DNA of 64,000 bases from an uncultured Candidatus Saccharibacteria bacterium (GCA_964386665.1 CAYLQP010000002.1:105-64104), one strand, 5' to 3'; positions 16,787 through 61,913 are shown, counted from the stretch's first letter. Notes: generated by a model not told the origin, from the letters alone. Program-made: numbers and translations.

Positions 16787-16860
16787 TGTCGAGGGTGGGA
16801 CTTGAACCCACGACCTGTCGATTATGAATCGACCGCTCTCACCAGCTGAGCTACCCCGAC
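16787..16860 (-). tRNA. tRNA-Met(CAU) (elongator or possibly a tRNA-Ile2 lysidine substrate)
   Basis: I folded it by hand into a canonical cloverleaf. The acceptor is GUCGGGG/CCUCGAC, with U8A9. The D-stem is GCUC/GAGC with a GG loop. The anticodon stem is GUCGA/UCGAC with loop UUCAUAA. The T-arm is GUGGG-UUCAAGU-CCCAC. The discriminator is A. Confidence 0.85.
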
Positions 16861-16943: not shown

Positions 16944-17014
16944 TTGCGGAGTCCGGATTTGCACCGGAGTCTTCAGGTTATGAGCCTGACGAGATACTAC
17001 TTCTCTACTCCGCT
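16944..17014 (-). tRNA. Second CAU tRNA (Met-like), atypical D and T loops
   Basis: The anticodon arm UCAGG-CUCAUAA-CCUGA and the T-stem UCCGG/CCGGA closely resemble E. coli tRNA-fMet. The 1:72 pair is an A-A mismatch. The D-loop AGUAGUA lacks G18 and the T-loop reads UGCAAAU (G55). There is no GGG/CCC anticodon stem, so it is not a canonical initiator. Confidence 0.55.
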
Positions 17015-24898: not shown

Positions 24899-24921
24899 AA
24901 AACGCGCATTACTGCGCGTTT
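24899..24921 (-). terminator. Intrinsic terminator of RNase P RNA
   Basis: In RNA sense: AACGCGCAguaaUGCGCGUUUUGUG. Confidence 0.75.
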
Positions 24922-25270
24922 TGTGTCTTGTCTATAAGCCGAATTCTGTTCAAGCATCTGTCGTAAGACAGATAAGCTTTTGATAATCATTTATCTAGGG
25001 ACTTTGTTACCAAAATCCTCAAGCGGCACTTCCGTCAAAGACGGACACGGCCTTGCACACAAGTAAGGGTTTAGCCGTTGCATTCTCTATGTTGCCATAA
25101 AGATTTATCCAATTGCTTGGATACCTTATCCTTTCGGAATCAGGCGTCACTGTTCGCACCTCTAGGATTGCTCCAGACGGGGGTTACCCGCTACCCTTGT
25201 CTTATCAAAAAGACTATGTGTTCGGACTTTCCTCAAGAAAACAAGTTTCCTGCGATTATCCGACAAGAAA
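24922..25270 (-). ncRNA. rnpB: RNase P RNA (bacterial type A-like)
   Basis: In RNA sense it has GAGGAAAGUCCGAAC (P4 5' strand) and ACAGAAUUCGGCUUAU (P4 3' strand). The GG->AA change in the 5' strand is compensated by CC->UU in the 3' strand relative to E. coli. P2 is GAUAAUC/GAUUAUC. CUAGAUAAAUGA, GCUUGAGG and GGAGCAA blocks are present. A promoter lies upstream and a terminator downstream. Confidence 0.88.
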
Positions 25271-25273
25271 AAA

Positions 25274-47831: not shown

Positions 47832-47903
47832 GGCCCTATCGTCTAACGGTTAGGACGAAGCGTTCTCAATGCTTAAATCAGAGTTCGATTCTCTGTAGGG
47901 TCA
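47832..47903 (+). tRNA. tRNA-Glu(CUC)
   Basis: Hand-folded. The acceptor is GGCCCUA/UAGGGUC (one G-U). The D-arm is GUC-UAACGGUUAG-GAC. The anticodon arm is AAGCG-UUCUCAA-UGCUU. The T-arm is CAGAG-UUCGAUU-CUCUG. The discriminator is A. Confidence 0.8.
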
Positions 47904-53469: not shown

Positions 53470-54033
53470 TTACTCTCCTCGAAGTCTTAGCACATCTGGA
53501 TCACCCCGCCAGTATGAATCCAGTATCACAATTACTGTAAACTCTCTTGGTACAGGAATTTCTTCCTTCTTGACATCTGATATCAAGACGGCGGCGTAAT
53601 CAGCTGCCAAACCAAGACTGTCGCTTAAGCAGTGAGCATCACTCATCCGGACAAATACTTCACCTGCTTCACCGATTGTGACAAGCACCCCGTCGACAAG
53701 CGCAGATCTTGATTCATTAGAAGAATTCGTTGTCTGTAAGGCAGCAACGTATGCCTTACAAATAATCTGTGCCAATTCTTCTATCTCCTGTGTTAGTAGC
53801 TTTTTTACTACATACTGAGTTGCGAGATAAAACACAAAAAAAAGAACGGGTATAAAAATCAATCTATTTGCAAAAAAAGAAAGTAATCGCAACGTCTCTA
53901 CCTTCCAAATATCAAACATGCTTCCAACTGCATAAGAAAGATAGAGAATCACCACTAAACCAATAGATAGTATCGTGGGCAAGACTGCTTTTTTTTGAGC
54001 TACCGCCAATTCTGTAAAGGGTCCATTTTTCAT
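53470..54033 (-). CDS. Membrane protein with cytoplasmic C-terminal domain (hypothetical)
   Basis: Two TM helices and a 110-aa domain with no motif. Confidence 0.45.
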   Translation of the reverse strand: MKNGPFTELAVAQKKAVLPTILSIGLVVILYLSYAVGSMFDIWKVETLRLLSFFANRLIFIPVLFFVFYLATQYVVKKLLTQEIEELAQIICKAYVAALQTTNSSNESRSALVDGVLVTIGEAGEVFVRMSDAHCLSDSLGLAADYAAVLISDVKKEEIPVPREFTVIVILDSYWRGDPDVLRLRGE

Positions 54034-54213: not shown

Positions 54214-54648
54214 TTACTCCTCCTCGAACCCTAAACACACTGAATTAATACAATATCGTTTTTTTGTTTGTGTTGGACCATCATCAAATACGTGTCCAAG
54301 GTGAGACTGACATTTCGCACACAATACTTCAACTCTCCTCATCCTGTGACTGTCATCTTCTTTTTCGATTATTGCACCAGAAACCGCGCTATCAAAACTC
54401 GGCCACCCTGTTCCTGAGTCAAATTTACTTCCTGAATCAAACAACTTCGCATCACACACCTTACAATGAAAACTTCCGTCACGTTTTTCATTTAACAATG
54501 CGCCCGAAAAAGGTCTTTCTGTTCCCTTCTCTCGAAGCACAGTGTATTCTTCTTCTGTGAGTTTCTTTTTGATTTCGTCTTCTTGCATATGTGGTGTATA
54601 TAGTATCTCATAGTGACAAACATTTTCATACAAAATTCTAGATTCCAT
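54214..54648 (-). CDS. msrB: Peptide methionine sulfoxide reductase MsrB
   Basis: CxxC...CxxC zinc site (CKVC...CAKC) and a GTGWPSF catalytic region. The catalytic Cys is present ([19 protein letters not shown]). Confidence 0.9.
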
Positions 54649-56715: not shown

Positions 56716-56767
56716 TAGAGTGGTGAGGTAGAGAGGAACAAGACTTTAATGAGAATGAAAACAAAAA

Positions 56768-56810
56768 GACGCTTTGCCCTTCGGGCAAAGCGTCTTTTTG
56801 TTTTTATTCT
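56768..56810. terminator. Bidirectional intrinsic terminator after typA
   Basis: AAAGACGCTTTGCCCttcgGGCAAAGCGTCTTT with A/T runs on both sides. Confidence 0.85.
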
Positions 56811-56974
56811 CCCTCTTTTTCTTCTTCTACTTCTTCTTGGAGTCCTGCTGTAGCCGTCTCAAGTCGATTTGCCAAATCTTCCGACGCTGAAGCTAAATCA
56901 GCCACCTCTTCCTCCAAAACACCTATATCCTCTTCTGCTTTTTTTAATTGTTTTTCTCCTGGTTCTTCTGGCAT
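56801..56974 (-). CDS. Possible 57-aa acidic coiled-coil small protein (unannotated)
   Basis: MPEEPGEKQLKKAEEDIGVLEEEVADLASASEDLANRLETATAGLQEEVEEEKEGE. Its ATG is 10 nt downstream of the stop of the 480-aa coiled-coil gene. It is below the ORF-track size cut-off. Confidence 0.3.
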
Positions 56975-56984
56975 ATATTTAAAA

Positions 56985-58427
56985 TTAATTCCAACTAAAT
57001 AAACTTCGCCACCAAGACTTTGCTCTTCCTACCATTGTTTGCTTTGGACGATTTGGTTCTATTTTTCTTTGACCGAAACTTACAGGACGTCTTCCTCCCC
57101 TTGAAGCAGTTTGACTTCGAGATTCAGTTTTTGGTTGTCCAGATGTAGCCTGTGTTGTTGCCGCAGAAGCGGAAGCTGTAGCTGTAGACGTTTCTGCAAC
57201 CTTTGGCTCTTCTACTACAAGATCTTCAAATACAAACCCCTCAAAAGAACCTTGGTTTGATCCAAGATCTGTTGACTCTTCAATCCCCTTTGTTTTCTTG
57301 ACACCTTCGATAGAATCAATTCTCTTATCGATACCACCAAGTAATTTTTCTGCTTTTGCCAGATCTTTTTCTACCGTCTTTAGCTGAGCTTTGATTCCAG
57401 CGATTCTTTCTTTGTTTTTTTCTATCTGATTATCAAACTCTTTTTTACCTTGTTTGTCTATTTTTTTAAGCCCTTTAAAGAGCTCAATTTGTTTTTCAAG
57501 TTCGGTGATTTCTTCAAGAGCTTTGTCATATCCTTCTTTAAGAGTATTGTAATTTCCCTTTTCTTGTTCCAAGTTTGTTGCAATCTCAATACGTTTTATT
57601 TCAGCATCAAGCTGACTTCGCATTGACTCTCGAATCGTATTTATACCTCCTTCAATAGCTAGAAAATCTCTTTTTTGATTTTCGTATGTTTCACTGAGTC
57701 GATCAAACTGAGTCTGCAAATTTGCTTTTTGCGCATCGAGAATAGTCTTTTTCTCGGCAAAAACCTTTTCGATAGACTCAGCTACAGCTGGAGGAACGTT
57801 TTGTCCCTCACCTGTTTTAAGTGCAAGTGAGCGCTTTTTGATATCTTCTGCGTCTTTTAATTCTTGATTGAGACGTTTCACCTTTGCTCTTACTTGGATG
57901 ATTTCTTGTTGAGTAGCAGTTATTTCAACAAGAGCATTTTCTCTTCGTGCAACAAGAGATTTCATTTCTTCAAACTCAGAACTGCTTTCAAGTTTCTTGC
58001 CAATATCCTTTGCACTCAAAAACACTTCAGTCAAAGGAGCTTCTTGTTCAAATTTTTCTGACTCCACAGGAACTTCTTCCTCTTCGGTATTTTCTGGCTG
58101 CACTAGCCTCCCTGAGGCTTCGAATGTTTTGAAAGCACTGGGTTCAATTCCATTCTTTTTTTGTAACGGGAAACCTCTTTGTTTTTCAGCTACTTGTTGT
58201 TCAGTTGTAGAAGTTGAATTTTTGGCTTCTTCAAACGTCTTAAAATCACCCTGCTTCACCCCACCTTTCTTTTCAAAAGGAAATCCTTCTCCTCTTTCCT
58301 CAAGAGATTTACTATCCCCTTTTGGTGTAGAGGGAGATTCTGGATCATCATCAAAATCTCTAAAATCACCACGGGCAGATCGGTAATTTGGATCAAACTC
58401 TTCCATTAGTCTTTGTTGTTGGTTCAT
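56985..58427 (-). CDS. Coiled-coil protein with repeated F-x-F-E motifs (hypothetical)
   Basis: 480 aa. Repeats GFPFEKKGG.KQGDFKTFEEA, GFPLQKKNGIEPSAFKTFEAS and GSFEGFVFEDL. A long central coiled coil. Basic C-terminus. Confidence 0.55.
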   Translation of the reverse strand: MNQQQRLMEEFDPNYRSARGDFRDFDDDPESPSTPKGDSKSLEERGEGFPFEKKGGVKQGDFKTFEEAKNSTSTTEQQVAEKQRGFPLQKKNGIEPSAFKTFEASGRLVQPENTEEEEVPVESEKFEQEAPLTEVFLSAKDIGKKLESSSEFEEMKSLVARRENALVEITATQQEIIQVRAKVKRLNQELKDAEDIKKRSLALKTGEGQNVPPAVAESIEKVFAEKKTILDAQKANLQTQFDRLSETYENQKRDFLAIEGGINTIRESMRSQLDAEIKRIEIATNLEQEKGNYNTLKEGYDKALEEITELEKQIELFKGLKKIDKQGKKEFDNQIEKNKERIAGIKAQLKTVEKDLAKAEKLLGGIDKRIDSIEGVKKTKGIEESTDLGSNQGSFEGFVFEDLVVEEPKVAETSTATASASAATTQATSGQPKTESRSQTASRGGRRPVSFGQRKIEPNRPKQTMVGRAKSWWRSLFSWN

Positions 58428-58470
58428 ATATCAATTATATACGAAGAAGGAGACTGTGTACAAGCATAGC

Positions 58471-58896
58471 TTAATTTACTTTGTTTATAAGCCTCTTTTC
58501 TTTATACTTCTCCCAAAAGTGCCAAATAAAAGCAAGAATAATTGAGATCCATATTAAATTACCAAATAAAATTGCAGATAACTGAATTGCAATTGAACTC
58601 CGTGAAAAACATACCCCCCAACTACACCCGAGTTCATCTACACCGAAAGTCATACCTAATACAGCCAAAAGAGTTGGTATACCTAATACAAACCACACCT
58701 TAAAGACTTTTATTGGGAAAAAGATCAACGTCAAAAGTGAAATTATAAGAGGGAGAGATAAAGCTAATACAGGATAAAAAAATAACTCTCTATATTGACC
58801 AAAAAAGCGACCAAGCACATAGGCTAAAATGGCTAATAATGAAAATAATATTAAAATTTGTAAATTCAACTTCCTCTTTCTAAAAAAATCTTTCAT
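58471..58896 (-). CDS. Membrane protein (4 TM, hypothetical)
   Basis: 141 aa. 4-nt coupled to the upstream 1006-aa gene. Confidence 0.5.
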   Translation of the reverse strand: MKDFFRKRKLNLQILILFSLLAILAYVLGRFFGQYRELFFYPVLALSLPLIISLLTLIFFPIKVFKVWFVLGIPTLLAVLGMTFGVDELGCSWGVCFSRSSIAIQLSAILFGNLIWISIILAFIWHFWEKYKEKRLINKVN

Positions 58897-61800
58897 TTTT
58901 GTTCTAATAAATCTAATAATTCATTAATCATTGTTATGAGCACTTCGACATCTGTCTTTGTAATGTGTTTGTGATGGTGTTTATTATACTCGTGATGTGA
59001 CAAATGTTTAAGTTTATAATTGAAGTCACGGATTTTTTTGATCAGTTTTTTGTCTACCCCTTTTTGAAGAAGCTTTTCTATTTTTTCAATTCGTTTTATC
59101 AACTTATCTTTGATCTTTTTTGAAATTTGAAGTTCAAGGACTGTTTTTTTGAGTAATCCGATATATTCTAAAGGAGTTAACTCTGTATTCGATTCAAGCT
59201 CAACATCAACAACCCCATCCCCTTCAATATCTAATTGAAGTATTGGTTCCGCTTCTGGTTCTAAGACTACTTCAGCAAGTGTATTAGCAGTTGTTGGAAT
59301 GTCAGCAAAAACTTTTTCTTCTATTGTCACTCCTCCTTCTTGCTTTTCGATTTCGAGCGTAAATGTTCCGGTTCCAAGTCCTTCAAGCTTAATAACTGGA
59401 TTAGTATGATCAAAGAGATAGACGTATTTCCCTTCTCCCACTTCTTCATACAGACTATTTGGGATTCCTTCTTCAATATAAGTTTTTCCTGTTTCTTCGT
59501 CAACTTTCACTCCTGTGAAGTTGCCAAGCCCATCATAGACTCCAAGTGATACTGGGGAATGCAGTCCTATACGTAAGTTTGGATAGTCTTTGTAAGACGG
59601 TTTTTCGAGAGTAATATATTCTGGAAGCGTTACAAGAGAATCGGTCAAAAGCTCTGATATAAGCGCTTTTATATCTGTAACTTCCATTATATCAGTATGT
59701 TTTGAGGCACTACCACTAACGTTATAGTTGAGCATATCGAGATAATAAGTTCTTCCTGCATTAGCAGTTACACTCGGGGTCACTACTGTTTCGTCCCCAT
59801 CAATTGTCTTGATAGTTTTGTAATCAAGTTTACCTTTGTCGTTTTTGAAATATTCAAGTCCTGAAGTCGTAAACACGCCCCATCCAACCACCTGAATCAA
59901 ATCAATTCCTTCGGGCGGAGTCCAGTCGTCTATCTGAGTATGAACATTCGTTGCGTTGTTTAGAAGTACAGAGTTCAACACATTAGGTTTTGCAACTTCA
60001 TCACTTCGCGGGTCTGTCCGACCATCTCTTGATGCTGTAAGAAATGCTACTAGCTCACTGTGTGAATCAACTTCACTACCATACAATCGATAGAGGTTAC
60101 TAATATCGTTTGTCGAAGATGCAATCTTGATAACCGGGTCATTAACAATATCAAAATACATCGGTGAAGGAATGAGATTATAAGCCGATTTCATATTCTC
60201 CCCCAATTGACGTATAGTTGCTTTTCCTGCTATTAATTTAATTGTTTGCTCTTCCCCATGCAACATACTTCCAATCGTCTTTGGTGTCCCGAGCTGTGGT
60301 GGAGCAACCAAAATCATTTGATCAACAATATCTTGGTGACCCTGAGATTTGAGTTTATCGACAAGTTTTTTTGCAAGGAGTCCTCCATTACTGTGAGTTA
60401 CCAACGAAACTTTCTTCGTCTTGGAAGTACTCGCAAGTCGAACCACTTCGTCAACCAAGTTTTGAGTATATGTTTCGTACCTTACTCCATCTGTTAATAA
60501 TGTATCGTAGTCAAAGCGCCAGTCATACGGGAGAGCTTTCCATTCGGTAATCTTCTCGTCACTTACCAACTTATCCATAGTAGTAATAAATGTTTTATAC
60601 ACATCAAAATCAAAGATGTTTCCTCCCGAATTAGTTCTATCCAGAATATCTCTTGTATAGATTCCAGTATTCTTAGAAGTTCCATCTGGTTTCAAATATA
60701 GGTATTCAACATCAGAAGCAAAAGAAATATTGGGTTCCCACAACTGATCTTCAAGAATCCCCTTCTTATAGAGCCTTGAAGCCTGAATCCCCGGCAGAAA
60801 CGCAACGTTTGAACAGCACACCTCTGGTGTATCATCTGGGGCATTAAGCCAAGGTTCGAAAAGTACTTGTACATCAAATATTTTTATCGTATCTCCTTGT
60901 CCTAAATCATTACCTTCAAACACATATGGACCTGTTGCATTACCCCACCAATTATTTCTTGCATCTACAATCTGATCTGGATTATTTCCGTTGCCATAGG
61001 CGATGACCCCAACACCATTATTTACAATTTTGTTAAGAAAAAACTTTGATTCGGATAATTCGTTACTTGTATAATACTCAATCCCTTTTGTATTGTTCGA
61101 GATCTCTGAATCAATGACTGCAATGTTACCACCATACACAAGAATACCCACTTCAGTAAAATTACGTACAATACTGTCTTCAAGTAAAAAGTCCCCACTG
61201 TATATTTTAATACCTGTTTGAAGTCCTCCTTCAATAACCAAACCTGTACCAAAAAGACTGTGGCCAAATGAGACAAGTGGTGTTCCAAAGGTCGAATTAA
61301 TTGTTACACGATCAAGATCAACAAAACTATTATAAAACACTGCCGTTGCTTGAGGCCAACTCAACGCTTCTGCCTCAAGAGAACCCTGTTTCAGAAGCAC
61401 TTCTGATTCTTCATAAGAAGTAATTGCGATGTTTTTTGTATTGATATCAAAATTTGAAATCACTACTTTACTTCCACCATAGACATTAATTCCATCAGAA
61501 TAATTTTCCATATCCAAAGACTCAATATCGAGCGTCGCACCATGAACATCAAGACCGACACCAAAAAAATGAGTATGCTTGATCATTGATTGTGTCGAAT
61601 AGAATACCCGCAGTACGGCATCATTCAAAGCTCCGTCAGCCAAAGTAAAGATAACAGGGTCTTCTTCACTTCCCTTAATTAGGATTTCACCAAAAATGTT
61701 TAGATCGTCACCTGACGATAGTACTACTTTTACTCCTGGTTCAATAGTGAGAATGGTACCTAAATCAAAAGAAACGTTAGAAGCAATAACATAAGGACTA

Positions 61801-61913
61801 TTTTGCTTAGTCCATGTTGCGCTTTCTAATTGATAACCAGAAACATTCGTCTGTGCAGATGTTGGAGAGAAACTTAAGAACAAAGATAGAAGAACAAAAA
61901 ATATTTTCTTCAT
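58893..61913 (-). CDS. Large secreted protein with N-terminal parallel beta-helix repeats and central alpha/beta-hydrolase (PGAP1/LCAT-like lipase) domain
   Basis: Signal peptide MKKIFFVLLSLFLSFSPTSA. Repetitive N..G..I..N segments typical of PbH1 beta-helix. Lipase-type nucleophile elbow VSLVTHSNGGLLAKKLV. His-rich C-terminus HHEYNKHHHKH. Confidence 0.65.
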   Translation of the reverse strand: MKKIFFVLLSLFLSFSPTSAQTNVSGYQLESATWTKQNSPYVIASNVSFDLGTILTIEPGVKVVLSSGDDLNIFGEILIKGSEEDPVIFTLADGALNDAVLRVFYSTQSMIKHTHFFGVGLDVHGATLDIESLDMENYSDGINVYGGSKVVISNFDINTKNIAITSYEESEVLLKQGSLEAEALSWPQATAVFYNSFVDLDRVTINSTFGTPLVSFGHSLFGTGLVIEGGLQTGIKIYSGDFLLEDSIVRNFTEVGILVYGGNIAVIDSEISNNTKGIEYYTSNELSESKFFLNKIVNNGVGVIAYGNGNNPDQIVDARNNWWGNATGPYVFEGNDLGQGDTIKIFDVQVLFEPWLNAPDDTPEVCCSNVAFLPGIQASRLYKKGILEDQLWEPNISFASDVEYLYLKPDGTSKNTGIYTRDILDRTNSGGNIFDFDVYKTFITTMDKLVSDEKITEWKALPYDWRFDYDTLLTDGVRYETYTQNLVDEVVRLASTSKTKKVSLVTHSNGGLLAKKLVDKLKSQGHQDIVDQMILVAPPQLGTPKTIGSMLHGEEQTIKLIAGKATIRQLGENMKSAYNLIPSPMYFDIVNDPVIKIASSTNDISNLYRLYGSEVDSHSELVAFLTASRDGRTDPRSDEVAKPNVLNSVLLNNATNVHTQIDDWTPPEGIDLIQVVGWGVFTTSGLEYFKNDKGKLDYKTIKTIDGDETVVTPSVTANAGRTYYLDMLNYNVSGSASKHTDIMEVTDIKALISELLTDSLVTLPEYITLEKPSYKDYPNLRIGLHSPVSLGVYDGLGNFTGVKVDEETGKTYIEEGIPNSLYEEVGEGKYVYLFDHTNPVIKLEGLGTGTFTLEIEKQEGGVTIEEKVFADIPTTANTLAEVVLEPEAEPILQLDIEGDGVVDVELESNTELTPLEYIGLLKKTVLELQISKKIKDKLIKRIEKIEKLLQKGVDKKLIKKIRDFNYKLKHLSHHEYNKHHHKHITKTDVEVLITMINELLDLLEQK

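What the first reader, a model, noticed from the sequence alone, without database searches (positions are those of the whole stretch)
56801..61913. Operon for a 1006-aa secreted beta-helix/lipase-like protein, a 4-TM protein, a 480-aa coiled-coil protein with F-x-F-E repeats and a possible 57-aa acidic peptide
What the sequence shows: four co-directional, tightly spaced or overlapping ORFs. The large protein has a signal peptide, parallel beta-helix-like repeats, a lipase-type nucleophile elbow (VTHSNGG) and a His-rich C-terminus. The coiled-coil protein carries three repeats of a G-F-P-F/L-x-K-K...F-K-T-F-E motif. What is inferred: this is a surface-exposed or host-interaction module. For a small-genome organism, a secreted lipase/acyltransferase is a plausible route to lipid scavenging.
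Basis: partly seen in the sequence, partly recalled or inferred. Interest (0 to 1): 0.55.

Follow-up and report, generated by a model that had tools for sequence, protein, structure and literature searches.

The report
CPR secreted LCAT-like lipase with membrane partner
An ultra-small (CPR/Patescibacteria) bacterium encodes a secreted enzyme of the same family as human LCAT and lysosomal phospholipase A2, always paired with a small uncharacterised four-helix membrane protein; this conserved pair is a concrete candidate for how bacteria that cannot make lipids take them from other cells, while the two other genes in the reported "operon" are strain-specific orphans.

Summary
The four co-directional minus-strand ORFs exist (1006, 141, 480 and 56 aa). 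The 1006-aa protein has a signal peptide, a parallel beta-helix, an LCAT/LPLA2-type alpha/beta-hydrolase, a beta-sandwich and a FIMAH-like helical tail. Pfam LCAT scores 4e-14. The best structural matches are LPLA2 and LCAT. Ser508, Asp707 and His739 are invariant in 52 homologs and align exactly with LCAT Ser181/Asp345/His377.

The family is large and essentially confined to Patescibacteria. Only the first two genes are co-conserved. A homologous 3-4-TM protein lies directly downstream in 59 of 71 related loci. Starting from the 4-TM motif alone, 17 of 18 metagenomic members sit behind an LCAT-like gene or its C-terminal fragment. The 4-TM family has no Pfam or PDB relative. Some relatives carry orphan "tail fragment + 4-TM" cassettes and tandem 4-TM copies.

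The 480-aa protein and the 56-aa acidic peptide are orphans with no signal peptide, so they are probably cytoplasmic. The motif repeat occurs twice, not three times.

Best reading: a surface phospholipase A/transacylase that harvests foreign membrane lipids, with a producer-side membrane partner that tethers it and/or protects the producer. No activity has been tested.

The parts
58893..61913 (-). Gene 1: 1006-aa secreted multidomain LCAT-like hydrolase
   Evidence: ORF. Pfam LCAT 4e-14 and Beta_helix, both above their cut-offs. More than 217 homologs, all Patescibacteria-type. AF2 model with mean pLDDT 88.7.
61854..61913 (-). Signal peptide, aa 1-20 (MKKIFFVLLSLFLSFSPTSA); no lipobox Cys
   Evidence: Read from the sequence. 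Low-pLDDT N-terminal helix 2-13 in the model. Most homologs have an N-terminal hydrophobic segment. SignalP was not available.
60864..61850 (-). Right-handed parallel beta-helix, aa 22-350; poorly conserved and replaced by other modules in many homologs
   Evidence: Pfam. DSSP of the model. PDB profile hits to phage receptor-binding protein 8egr, NosD and AlgE4. Foldseek hits to AlgG and tailspikes. Length before the HSxGG motif varies from 106 to 739 aa.
59634..60818 (-). LCAT/LPLA2-type alpha/beta-hydrolase domain, aa 366-760
   Evidence: Foldseek top hits LPLA2 4x97/4x90 (E 2e-10, TM 0.69 normalised to the target) and LCAT 4x96/6mvd. hhalign against human LCAT gives 95.8% probability, E 7.9e-9.
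60390..60392 (-). Ser508 codon: predicted nucleophile in the elbow LVTHSNGG
   Evidence: Invariant in 52 sequences. Aligns with LCAT Ser181. Sits between strand 502-507 and helix 509-523. Coordinates verified.
59793..59795 (-). Asp707 codon: predicted triad acid (DGDETV, matching LCAT DGDDTV)
   Evidence: Invariant. Aligns with LCAT Asp345.
59697..59699 (-). His739 codon: predicted triad base, 32 residues after the Asp as in LCAT
   Evidence: Invariant. Aligns with LCAT His377.
59193..59582 (-). Beta-sandwich domain, aa 778-907
   Evidence: AF2 strands 778-907 with pLDDT of about 83-93. Conserved G826, G845, G849 and D895.
58896..59180 (-). FIMAH-like four-helix C-terminal tail, aa 912-1006, including the His/Lys-rich loop 968-986 and the conserved last helix
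   Evidence: The tail scanned alone scores 25.1 bits against the Pfam FIMAH cut-off of 24.8; homologs score 26-31 bits. The terminal helix is conserved across the family.
58471..58896 (-). Gene 2: 141-aa 4-TM partner, predicted N-in/C-in; its start overlaps the stop of gene 1 by 4 nt (ATGA)
   Evidence: TM segments. A homologous small TM gene lies directly downstream in 59 of 71 loci. One sequence family: 51 of 60 members linked at E<1e-3, the window's protein included. The reciprocal test gives 16-17 of 18. No Pfam or PDB relative.
56985..58427 (-). Gene 3: 480-aa orphan coiled-coil protein; not part of the conserved module
   Evidence: Only self-hits among 5.8 billion and 1.84 billion proteins. 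Absent from the 80 related loci. AF2 shows disordered 1-132, helices 150-205/213-319/325-379, disordered 380-465 and helix 466-476.
58119..58286 (-). Two copies of G-F-P-x-x-K-K...F-K-T-F-E (aa 48-66 and 85-103) in the disordered N-terminus of gene 3
   Evidence: Low pLDDT.
56988..57032 (-). Basic, Trp-rich amphipathic C-terminal helix of gene 3 (VGRAKSWWRSLFSWN); possible membrane-targeting sequence
   Evidence: Hydrophobic moment 0.58. Helix 466-476 in the model, at low confidence (pLDDT below 50). The resemblance to the FtsA membrane-targeting tail comes from memory only.
56804..56974 (-). Gene 4: 56-aa acidic (30% Glu, net charge -15) orphan ORF
   Evidence: Found only on the same contig (L001).
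56758..56804 (.). Bidirectional intrinsic terminator shared with the convergent typA/bipA gene
   Evidence: Stem of 20 pairs followed by a T-run on both strands.
58434..58462 (-). Promoter-like site (TGTACA-17-TATAAT) in the 43-nt gap, 7 nt upstream of the gene 3 ATG; it might make genes 3-4 a separate transcription unit
   Evidence: The number of promoter-like sites in the region is not above shuffled expectation, so this is weak evidence.

Best explanation
Genes 1 and 2 form a conserved two-gene module specific to Patescibacteria.

Gene 1 encodes a Sec-exported enzyme. Its catalytic domain belongs to the LCAT/LPLA2 family (PF02450).
- By established knowledge of that family, its members take an acyl chain from a glycerophospholipid onto the active-site Ser. 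They then pass it to water (phospholipase A activity, giving a lysolipid and a fatty acid) or to an alcohol acceptor (transacylation). No ATP, CoA or ACP is needed.
- The variable N-terminal beta-helix most likely targets the enzyme to a glycan surface, such as a host envelope (inferred).

Gene 2 encodes a 4-TM protein that is translationally coupled to gene 1.
- It sits in the producer's membrane. My committed guess is that it binds the enzyme, keeping it on the producer cell and/or stopping it from attacking the producer's own scavenged-lipid membrane (inferred).

Together the pair would supply lysolipids and fatty acids to a cell that cannot make them.

Genes 3 and 4 are strain-specific, probably cytoplasmic additions. 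Gene 3 is a coiled-coil scaffold with a membrane-targeting tail.

Shown: domain identities, a conserved triad aligned with LCAT's, linkage of genes 1 and 2, and orphan status of genes 3 and 4.
Inferred: the substrate, the direction of action (host or self), and the role of the 4-TM partner.
For: Family and fold:
- Pfam LCAT 4e-14, above its cut-off.
- AF2 mean pLDDT 88.7.
- Foldseek's best hits are LPLA2 and LCAT, covering nearly the whole target (TM 0.69).
- hhalign against human LCAT (sequence validated 100% against 4xx1_A) gives 95.8% probability. It aligns S508/D707/H739 with S181/D345/H377 and matches the PYDWR motif.
- All three triad residues are invariant in 52 homologs.

Distribution:
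- At least 523 matching stretches in GTDB species genomes, essentially all Patescibacteria.

Linkage of genes 1 and 2:
- A 4-TM gene lies directly downstream in 59 of 71 loci, most often 1-4 nt after the stop codon.
- These proteins form one sequence family.
- In the reciprocal search from the 4-TM motif alone, 16 of 18 evaluable members have an LCAT-like ORF or tail fragment ending 3-29 nt upstream, and a 17th is linked at 866 nt.

Modularity:
- The roughly 500 aa after HSxGG are constant in length, while the N-terminal module varies from 106 to 739 aa and in Pfam content.

Biological context:
Against: - No activity or substrate has been measured. A conserved triad shows a live serine hydrolase, not necessarily a phospholipase.
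- The N-terminal part of the LCAT domain (aa 366-457) is matched only by fold, not by the profile alignment.
- I could not inspect model coordinates, so triad geometry was not measured.
- 12 of 71 loci have no 4-TM gene within 6 kb, so the partner is not obligatory.
- The partner's role is unresolved. A Mantel test shows no specific co-variation between the 4-TM protein and the tail (partial r -0.07).
- 4-TM proteins do not cluster by the tail type of their partner.
- The partner's most conserved residues lie in its cytoplasmic loop and in TM4, not in its outer loops.
- Some family members have both a C-terminal TM segment and a 4-TM partner, which argues against a simple anchoring role.
Confidence: 0.5

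Rival explanations
1. Effector-immunity pair. The LCAT-like protein is a membrane-lytic phospholipase toxin aimed at hosts or competitors. The 4-TM protein is its immunity protein, and lipid nutrition is secondary or absent.
For: - The gene order (effector then small protein) and the 1-4-nt coupling fit an effector-immunity pair.
- Foldseek also retrieves the T6SS phospholipase Tle4, solved with its immunity protein Tli4 (rank 9).
- Relatives carry intact, divergent extra 4-TM genes, either in tandem (L116, L033, L028) or behind tail-only fragments (L016, L056, L085/L092, L101, L105, L040). This resembles orphan immunity modules of polymorphic toxin loci.
- The 4-TM outer loops are variable while the enzyme core is conserved.
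Against: - From my own knowledge, not tested here: the known lipase immunity proteins (the Tli proteins, and TilA of Staphylococcus aureus) are soluble or lipoprotein binders, not polytopic membrane proteins.
- The outer loops are only about 10-30 aa long, too small to plug a 400-aa lipase.
- The orphan cassettes never include the lipase domain.
- The variable part of the enzyme is N-terminal, not the C-terminal toxin end typical of polymorphic toxins.
- There are no PADLOC hits, and the flanking genes are housekeeping genes with no secretion-system genes among them.
Confidence: 0.25
2. Glycan-directed esterase. The beta-helix binds a polysaccharide and the hydrolase removes acyl or acetyl esters from cell-wall or capsule polymers, helping the cell attach to or breach a host envelope. 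Membrane lipids are not the substrate.
For: - Beta-helix domains match alginate epimerases and lyases, a glucanase and phage tailspikes.
- Weaker Pfam matches exist to generic serine esterases (DUF676, PGAP1, DUF900).
- The elbow has Thr rather than Gly at position -2.
Against: - The best Pfam and fold matches are specifically LCAT and LPLA2, and they cover nearly the whole target, which includes the cap and membrane-binding subdomains.
- The LCAT-specific PYDWR and DGD(E/D)TV motifs are invariant.
- Many homologs lack the beta-helix but keep the LCAT core.
Confidence: 0.1
3. Self-membrane remodelling. The enzyme acts on the producer's own outer leaflet, for example making lysolipids to relieve curvature stress in an ultra-small cell or transferring acyl chains onto its own surface molecules. 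The 4-TM protein would be its membrane substrate-presenting or acceptor subunit.
For: - Lysolipids are enriched in CPR-sized cells and were proposed to relieve curvature stress (PMC7242380).
- LCAT-family enzymes are transacylases (family knowledge).
- The tight stoichiometric coupling to an integral membrane protein fits a producer-side membrane complex.
Against: - A large, fast-varying N-terminal targeting module, with its resemblance to tailspikes, is easier to explain by recognition of a foreign surface.
- 12 of 71 loci lack the partner.
Confidence: 0.1

Closest known systems
Eukaryotic LCAT / lysosomal phospholipase A2 (LPLA2, PLA2G15) / PDAT family, Pfam PF02450
   Same: - The alpha/beta-hydrolase fold; these are the best structural matches.
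- The Ser-Asp-His triad at aligned positions with the same 32-residue Asp-His spacing, plus the PYDWR and DGDxTV motifs.
- Secreted enzymes that act on phospholipids without cofactors (family knowledge).
   Different: - About 15% sequence identity.
- Bacterial (Patescibacteria) origin.
- Embedded in a 1006-aa protein between a beta-helix and a beta-sandwich with a FIMAH tail.
- The elbow is T-H-S-N-G-G rather than G-H-S-L-G.
- Encoded with a dedicated 4-TM partner.
- No apolipoprotein-type activator is known for it.
T6SS phospholipase effector-immunity pairs (Tle4-Tli4, PDB 4r1d)
   Same: An exported alpha/beta-hydrolase phospholipase encoded next to a small cognate protein. The structural similarity is significant (rank 9).
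   Different: - No T6SS genes in the sequenced flanks; from my own knowledge, Patescibacteria are not known to have a T6SS.
- The partner is a polytopic membrane protein, not a periplasmic lipoprotein.
- Tle4 ranks below LPLA2 and LCAT.
Lipase / lipase-specific foldase operons (LipA-Lif of Pseudomonas and Burkholderia)
   Same: A secreted lipase gene followed directly by a membrane-anchored accessory gene in one operon.
   Different: Lif has a single TM segment and a large periplasmic helical chaperone domain. Here the partner is a 141-aa 4-TM protein with tiny loops, and it gives no Pfam hit to the foldase family.
Orphan C-terminal/immunity modules of polymorphic toxin loci (CdiA-CT/CdiI, Rhs)
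   Same: Relatives carry a promoter-distal 'C-terminal fragment + small partner gene' cassette after the main pair, and the cassette is divergent from the main copy.
   Different: The fragment is a non-catalytic helical tail, not a toxin domain. No pre-toxin junction motif was found. This window has no orphan cassette.
Secreted phospholipase proposed for host-lipid use in the CPR predator Vampirococcus lugosii (PMC8080830)
   Same: The same proposed biology: a secreted phospholipase in a CPR bacterium that lacks phospholipid synthesis.
   Different: That paper names one gene (Vamp_34_196) without giving a family or a partner. I could not compare sequences, so whether the two are related is unknown.

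Membership tests
LCAT family (Pfam PF02450) | Match to the family HMM above the curated gathering score | tested here: met
   53.1 bits against a cut-off of 21, E 4e-14, aa 437-708. Homologs also match.
LCAT family (Pfam PF02450) | Ser-Asp-His triad at the family's positions | tested here: met
   S508, D707 and H739 align with LCAT S181, D345 and H377 and are invariant in 52 sequences.
LCAT family (Pfam PF02450) | LCAT/LPLA2-type fold: hydrolase core plus cap and membrane-binding subdomains | tested here: met
   LPLA2 4x97/4x90 and LCAT are the top Foldseek hits, with TM 0.65-0.69 normalised to the 377-residue target over about 440 columns. The subdomains were not inspected one by one.
LCAT family (Pfam PF02450) | Phospholipase A or acyltransferase activity on phospholipids | not testable with these tools
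   Needs biochemistry.
Right-handed parallel beta-helix (Pfam PF13229) | HMM match above the cut-off and a beta-helix fold | tested here: met
   27.2 bits against 25.9. Strand ladder at aa 22-350. Hits to 8egr, NosD, AlgG and AlgE4.
FIMAH domain (Pfam PF22888) | HMM match above the cut-off | tested here: inconclusive
   18.0 bits in the full protein, below the 24.8 cut-off. The tail scanned alone scores 25.1 bits, and homologs score 26-31 bits. The function of the domain is unknown.
T6SS Tle-Tli effector-immunity | Association with T6SS genes (VgrG, PAAR, Hcp) | tested here: not met
   The neighbours are truB, hisS, a DsbA-like gene, a UvrD-like helicase and typA. Pfam Tle3 scores only 12.7 bits against a cut-off of 27.
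T6SS Tle-Tli effector-immunity | Immunity protein is a periplasmic or lipoprotein binder | tested here: not met
   The partner is a 4-TM protein with loops of about 10-16 aa.
Lipase-specific foldase (Lif) partner | Partner matches the foldase family, with one TM segment and a large helical ectodomain | tested here: not met
   No Pfam family for the window's protein or for 50 homologs. 141 aa, four TM segments.
Polymorphic toxin locus with orphan modules | Variable C-terminal toxin domain with a cognate downstream immunity gene, plus orphan CT/immunity cassettes | tested here: inconclusive
   Orphan 'tail + 4-TM' cassettes exist in relatives, but not in this window. The tail is not a recognisable toxin. 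No tail/4-TM co-variation was found.
   Genes 3 and 4 have no homologs. Only genes 1 and 2 co-occur.

The most novel reading that the evidence does not exclude
The LCAT-like protein and its 4-TM partner form a Patescibacteria-wide, contact-dependent 'lipid piracy' system. A surface enzyme with swappable host-recognition heads strips acyl chains or lysolipids from the host membrane. A new family of polytopic proteins gives cognate self-protection. Stored orphan 'tail + partner' cassettes allow variants to be exchanged by recombination, as in polymorphic toxin loci. This would be the missing lipid-acquisition route of CPR bacteria.
Probability: 0.2. Interest if true: 0.85.

Novelty: new variant of a known kind. 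Interest (0 to 1): 0.55.

Why it matters
Patescibacteria make up a large share of bacterial diversity and generally cannot synthesise fatty acids or phospholipids. [quoted passage not shown] Field lipidomics point to lysolipids taken from neighbouring cells (PMC7242380).

An exported enzyme of the LCAT/LPLA2 family produces exactly such lysolipids and free fatty acids, and needs no energy cofactor outside the cell. It is widespread in the phylum and always comes with a dedicated membrane partner. That makes it a specific candidate that can be expressed and assayed.

The 4-TM partner is an unannotated protein family. Its linkage to the enzyme, its duplications and its orphan cassettes give a handle on how these cells avoid digesting their own borrowed membranes.

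Tried and rejected
1. Single-sequence phmmer of the hydrolase domain against PDB gave only noise. The profile alignment was needed.
No 4-TM model or enzyme/partner complex model could therefore be made.
4. The automatic locus search from the 4-TM alignments failed for lack of conserved stretches. A hand-written degenerate DNA pattern replaced it.
5. The hypothesis that the FIMAH tail and the 4-TM protein are a specifically co-evolving pair was not supported by either test.
   - Mantel partial r -0.07, p 0.88.
   - 4-TM proteins do not cluster by the tail type of their partner.
6. I tested whether unpaired enzymes replace the partner with their own C-terminal TM anchor. They do not. The members with a TM tail (L073, L075, L081) still have a partner.
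7. No natural enzyme/4-TM fusions exist among 120 homologs.
8. A recurring acidic or charged small gene downstream was rejected. Only 9 of 59 loci have a highly charged ORF there, and those ORFs are unrelated to one another.
9. Genes 3 and 4:
   - The PADLOC hit (LmuB), the NCBIfam hits (SMC, HlyD, TrlF) and the Pfam hits are all far below their cut-offs and reflect coiled-coil composition.
   - PHROGs gave nothing.
   - Foldseek hits for the 480-aa model, including F-BAR-like ones, are not significant.
10. Literature searches for LCAT-like or lipase proteins in Patescibacteria/Parcubacteria found no description of this family. 'FIMAH' retrieves only papers on the fimbrial genes fimA and fimH.

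Full report
**1. The observation**

Four co-directional ORFs lie on the minus strand:
- 58893-61913 (1006 aa)
- 58471-58896 (141 aa)
- 56985-58427 (480 aa)

The first two overlap by 4 nt (ATGA). Gaps of 43 nt and 10 nt follow. A stem of 20 pairs forming a bidirectional terminator at 56758-56804 separates the unit from the convergent typA/bipA gene. truB lies 249 nt upstream.

None of the four genes has an obvious Shine-Dalgarno sequence. The 43-nt gap before the 480-aa gene contains TGTACA-17-TATAAT, 7 nt from the ATG. Promoter-like sites in the region are no more frequent than in shuffled sequence, so this is only a hint that genes 3-4 may be transcribed separately.

**2. The 1006-aa protein**

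Pfam places two domains above their curated cut-offs:
- LCAT (PF02450): 53.1 bits against 21, E 4e-14, aa 437-708.
- Beta_helix: 27.2 bits against 25.9.

An AlphaFold2 model built on 52 homologs is confident, with mean pLDDT 88.7. It shows:
- a signal-like helix
- a beta-helix (aa 22-350)
- an alpha/beta-hydrolase (aa 366-760)
- a beta-sandwich (aa 778-907)
- a four-helix tail (aa 914-1005)

Foldseek against the PDB gives lysosomal phospholipase A2 (4x97, 4x90; E 2e-10; TM 0.69 normalised to the 377-residue target). Human LCAT follows. Lower down come the T6SS lipase Tle4 and, for the N-terminal part, alginate epimerases and phage tailspikes.

A profile-sequence alignment of the family against it gives 95.8% probability:
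- Ser508 (in LVTHSNGG) falls on LCAT Ser181.
- Asp707 (DGDETV) falls on Asp345 (DGDDTV).
- His739 falls on His377.
- The PYDWR motif is shared.

All three residues are invariant in the 52-sequence alignment. In the model, Ser508 lies at the strand-turn-helix elbow. I could not access coordinates to measure the geometry.

The His-rich stretch (aa 968-986) is real. It lies in a low-confidence loop of the tail, and only the closest relatives share it. In more distant relatives the loop is Lys/Pro-rich. Scanned alone, the tail just passes the Pfam FIMAH cut-off (25.1 bits against 24.8), and several homologs pass clearly. Nothing is published about this domain.

**3. The family**

- At least 523 matching stretches occur in GTDB species genomes. 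The titles name Parcubacteria, Paceibacterota, and the Kaiser-, Taylor-, Nomura-, Giovannoni-, Lipton- and Moranbacteria.
- The window's own protein is on record only from its own contig. Its nearest relative is 46-47% identical.
- The roughly 500 residues after the HSxGG motif are constant in length and end in a conserved helix (...LSKTDAQLLLDMLNKLLDNL).
- The part before the motif varies from 106 to 739 residues and in domain content.
- The conserved unit is therefore the LCAT domain, the beta-sandwich and the tail, carrying a swappable N-terminal head.

**4. Co-conservation**

In the three closest relatives a small membrane-protein gene follows the enzyme gene, but there is no coiled-coil gene.

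Forward test, across 71 evaluable loci:
- 59 have a 3-4-TM ORF of 90-180 aa directly downstream, most often 1-4 nt after the stop codon.
- 51 of the 60 small proteins are linked by phmmer at E<1e-3, including the window's.
- The 12 unpaired loci have no such gene within 6 kb.

Reciprocal test: I scanned metagenomes with a degenerate DNA pattern for the 4-TM C-terminal motif only.
- 46 of the 67 hits were chance matches.
- 21 were true family members, of which 18 could be evaluated.
- 16 of those 18 have an LCAT-like ORF or its C-terminal fragment ending 3-29 nt upstream. A 17th is linked at 866 nt.

The 4-TM family has no Pfam or PDB relative. No fusions with the enzyme exist among 120 homologs.

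The window's 141-aa protein has basic N- and C-termini and a basic TM2-TM3 loop, which predicts an N-in/C-in topology. Its outer loops are about 10-16 residues long, and one carries a C-x4-C pair.

**5. Genes 3 and 4**

- The 480-aa protein matches only itself among 5.8 billion clustered proteins.
- Among 1.84 billion representatives scanned exhaustively, it matches only itself and one marginal coiled-coil hit.
- Neither it nor the 56-aa peptide is found in the 80 related loci.

The motif G-F-P-x-x-K-K...F-K-T-F-E occurs twice (aa 48-66 and 85-103). The 'third copy' is only GFVFED.

A single-sequence AF2 model shows:
- a disordered N-terminus (1-132) holding the repeats
- three long, confident helices (150-205, 213-319, 325-379)
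- a disordered Ser/Thr/Ala-rich linker
- a short C-terminal helix in the basic, Trp-rich tail VGRAKSWWRSLFSWN, predicted at low confidence (pLDDT below 50)

That tail is amphipathic. From memory it resembles the FtsA membrane-targeting sequence. There is no signal peptide or TM segment. Fold matches are not significant. The database hits to SMC, HlyD and LmuB are coiled-coil noise, far below their cut-offs.

I read gene 3 as a strain-specific, cytoplasmic coiled-coil scaffold that attaches peripherally to the membrane. Gene 4 (30% Glu, net charge -15) is a small acidic peptide of unknown role. Whether either interacts with the module is unknown.

**6. What the partner does**

Several relatives carry extra 4-TM genes.
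- Tandem copies: L116, L033 and L028.
- Copies preceded by an intact short ORF homologous only to the last 80-130 residues of the enzyme: L016, L056, L085/L092, L105 and the stand-alone L101.
- One copy preceded by a different, beta-type C-terminal fragment: L040.

The fragment homology is solid (E 6e-16 and 5e-12, aligned to the very end of the enzyme). In L056 the fragment and its 4-TM gene both find their best matches in the same foreign loci. This looks like the orphan C-terminal/immunity cassettes of polymorphic toxin loci.

Two tests of a specific tail/4-TM partnership were negative.
- 4-TM divergence tracks the LCAT core (r = 0.50), with no residual correlation with the tail (partial r -0.07, p 0.88).
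- 4-TM proteins partnered with helical, beta-type or TM-type tails all fall in one cluster.

Members with their own C-terminal TM segment still have a partner. The partner's best-conserved residues are in its cytoplasmic loop (F-K-x-W-x-K-F-A) and in TM4, not in its outer loops.

The partner's role therefore stays open between tethering, self-protection (immunity) and lipid hand-over. The retention of intact extra copies favours a function the partner can perform without its own enzyme, and so leans towards protection.

**7. Mechanism proposed**

By established knowledge of PF02450 enzymes, the active-site Ser takes an acyl chain from a phospholipid and passes it to water or to an alcohol acceptor, with no cofactor. 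That suits an extracellular reaction.

Patescibacteria lack fatty-acid and phospholipid synthesis. They are enriched in lysolipids and keep PlsY and PlsC without PlsX (PMC7242380). A 2024 perspective says no lipid uptake or breakdown mechanism has been identified in them (PMC11665869). Only a generic secreted phospholipase has been proposed, in Vampirococcus (PMC8080830).

I therefore propose that the enzyme is aimed by its variable head at a foreign envelope and releases lysolipids and fatty acids for uptake. The co-translated 4-TM protein would hold the enzyme at the producer's membrane and/or neutralise it there.

- Shown: family membership, a conserved triad aligned with LCAT's, an export signal, linkage of genes 1 and 2, and the module's restriction to the phylum.
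- Inferred: substrate, target, and the partner's role.

**8. Verdict**

- The lipase call is right and well supported.
- The 'four-gene surface module' is not supported.
- The real finding is a conserved two-gene module with an unannotated partner family.
- I rate it a new variant of a known kind: a secreted lipase plus an accessory membrane protein, of the LCAT family.
- Interest is moderate, because the module offers a testable candidate for an acknowledged open question but no functional evidence yet.

Noticed in passing
L016:10210-10868; L056:5407-6079; L085 (minus strand); L092; L101:4038-4679; L105:3861-4514; L040:3657-4241: Orphan cassettes occur in related loci. A short intact ORF, homologous only to the C-terminal tail of the LCAT-like enzyme, is followed within 4-20 nt by an extra, divergent 4-TM gene. 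L101 has the cassette with no LCAT-like gene in the 4 kb upstream.
   Followed up: partly
L064, L065, L069, L105, L116 (C-termini of the large proteins); L101:2-2054: A second, non-helical class of C-terminus (...G-L-V-...-T-x-x-G-...-I/F-x-Y) replaces the FIMAH tail in some family members. It also ends a 683-aa ORF in L101 that does not match the LCAT-core HMM, so it may be a separate portable C-terminal module.
   Followed up: partly
L033:3466-5076: A tandem duplication covers the 4-TM gene together with a downstream small gene, possibly AbrB/SpoVT-like by eye (not tested). The two 4-TM copies share an identical C-terminal 'KKDSTLSN'.
   Followed up: no
window 24919-25271 (-): Bacterial class A RNase P RNA (118.8 bits). 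tRNA genes lie at 16787-16860 (-), 16944-17014 (-) and 47832-47903 (+).
   Followed up: no
window 1-64000: GC skew is negative in nearly every 2-kb bin (cumulative -4.1), and most long ORFs are on the minus strand. This is consistent with the whole window lying on one replichore.
   Followed up: no
window 54214-54648 (-) and 53470-54033 (-): A likely MsrB-type methionine sulfoxide reductase (CxxC...C motifs, judged by eye) and a 187-aa hydrophobic protein lie beyond typA. The public contig also has a DsbA-like thioredoxin about 3 kb upstream of the large gene, outside the window (L001:4290-5009). That may matter for disulfides in the exported enzyme (conserved CC at aa 366-367) and in the Cys-pair loops of the 4-TM protein.
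   Followed up: no
window 58434-58462 (-): The promoter-like hexamers sit only 7 nt from the ATG of the 480-aa gene, which would give a nearly leaderless mRNA. None of the four genes has a recognisable Shine-Dalgarno sequence.
   Followed up: partly
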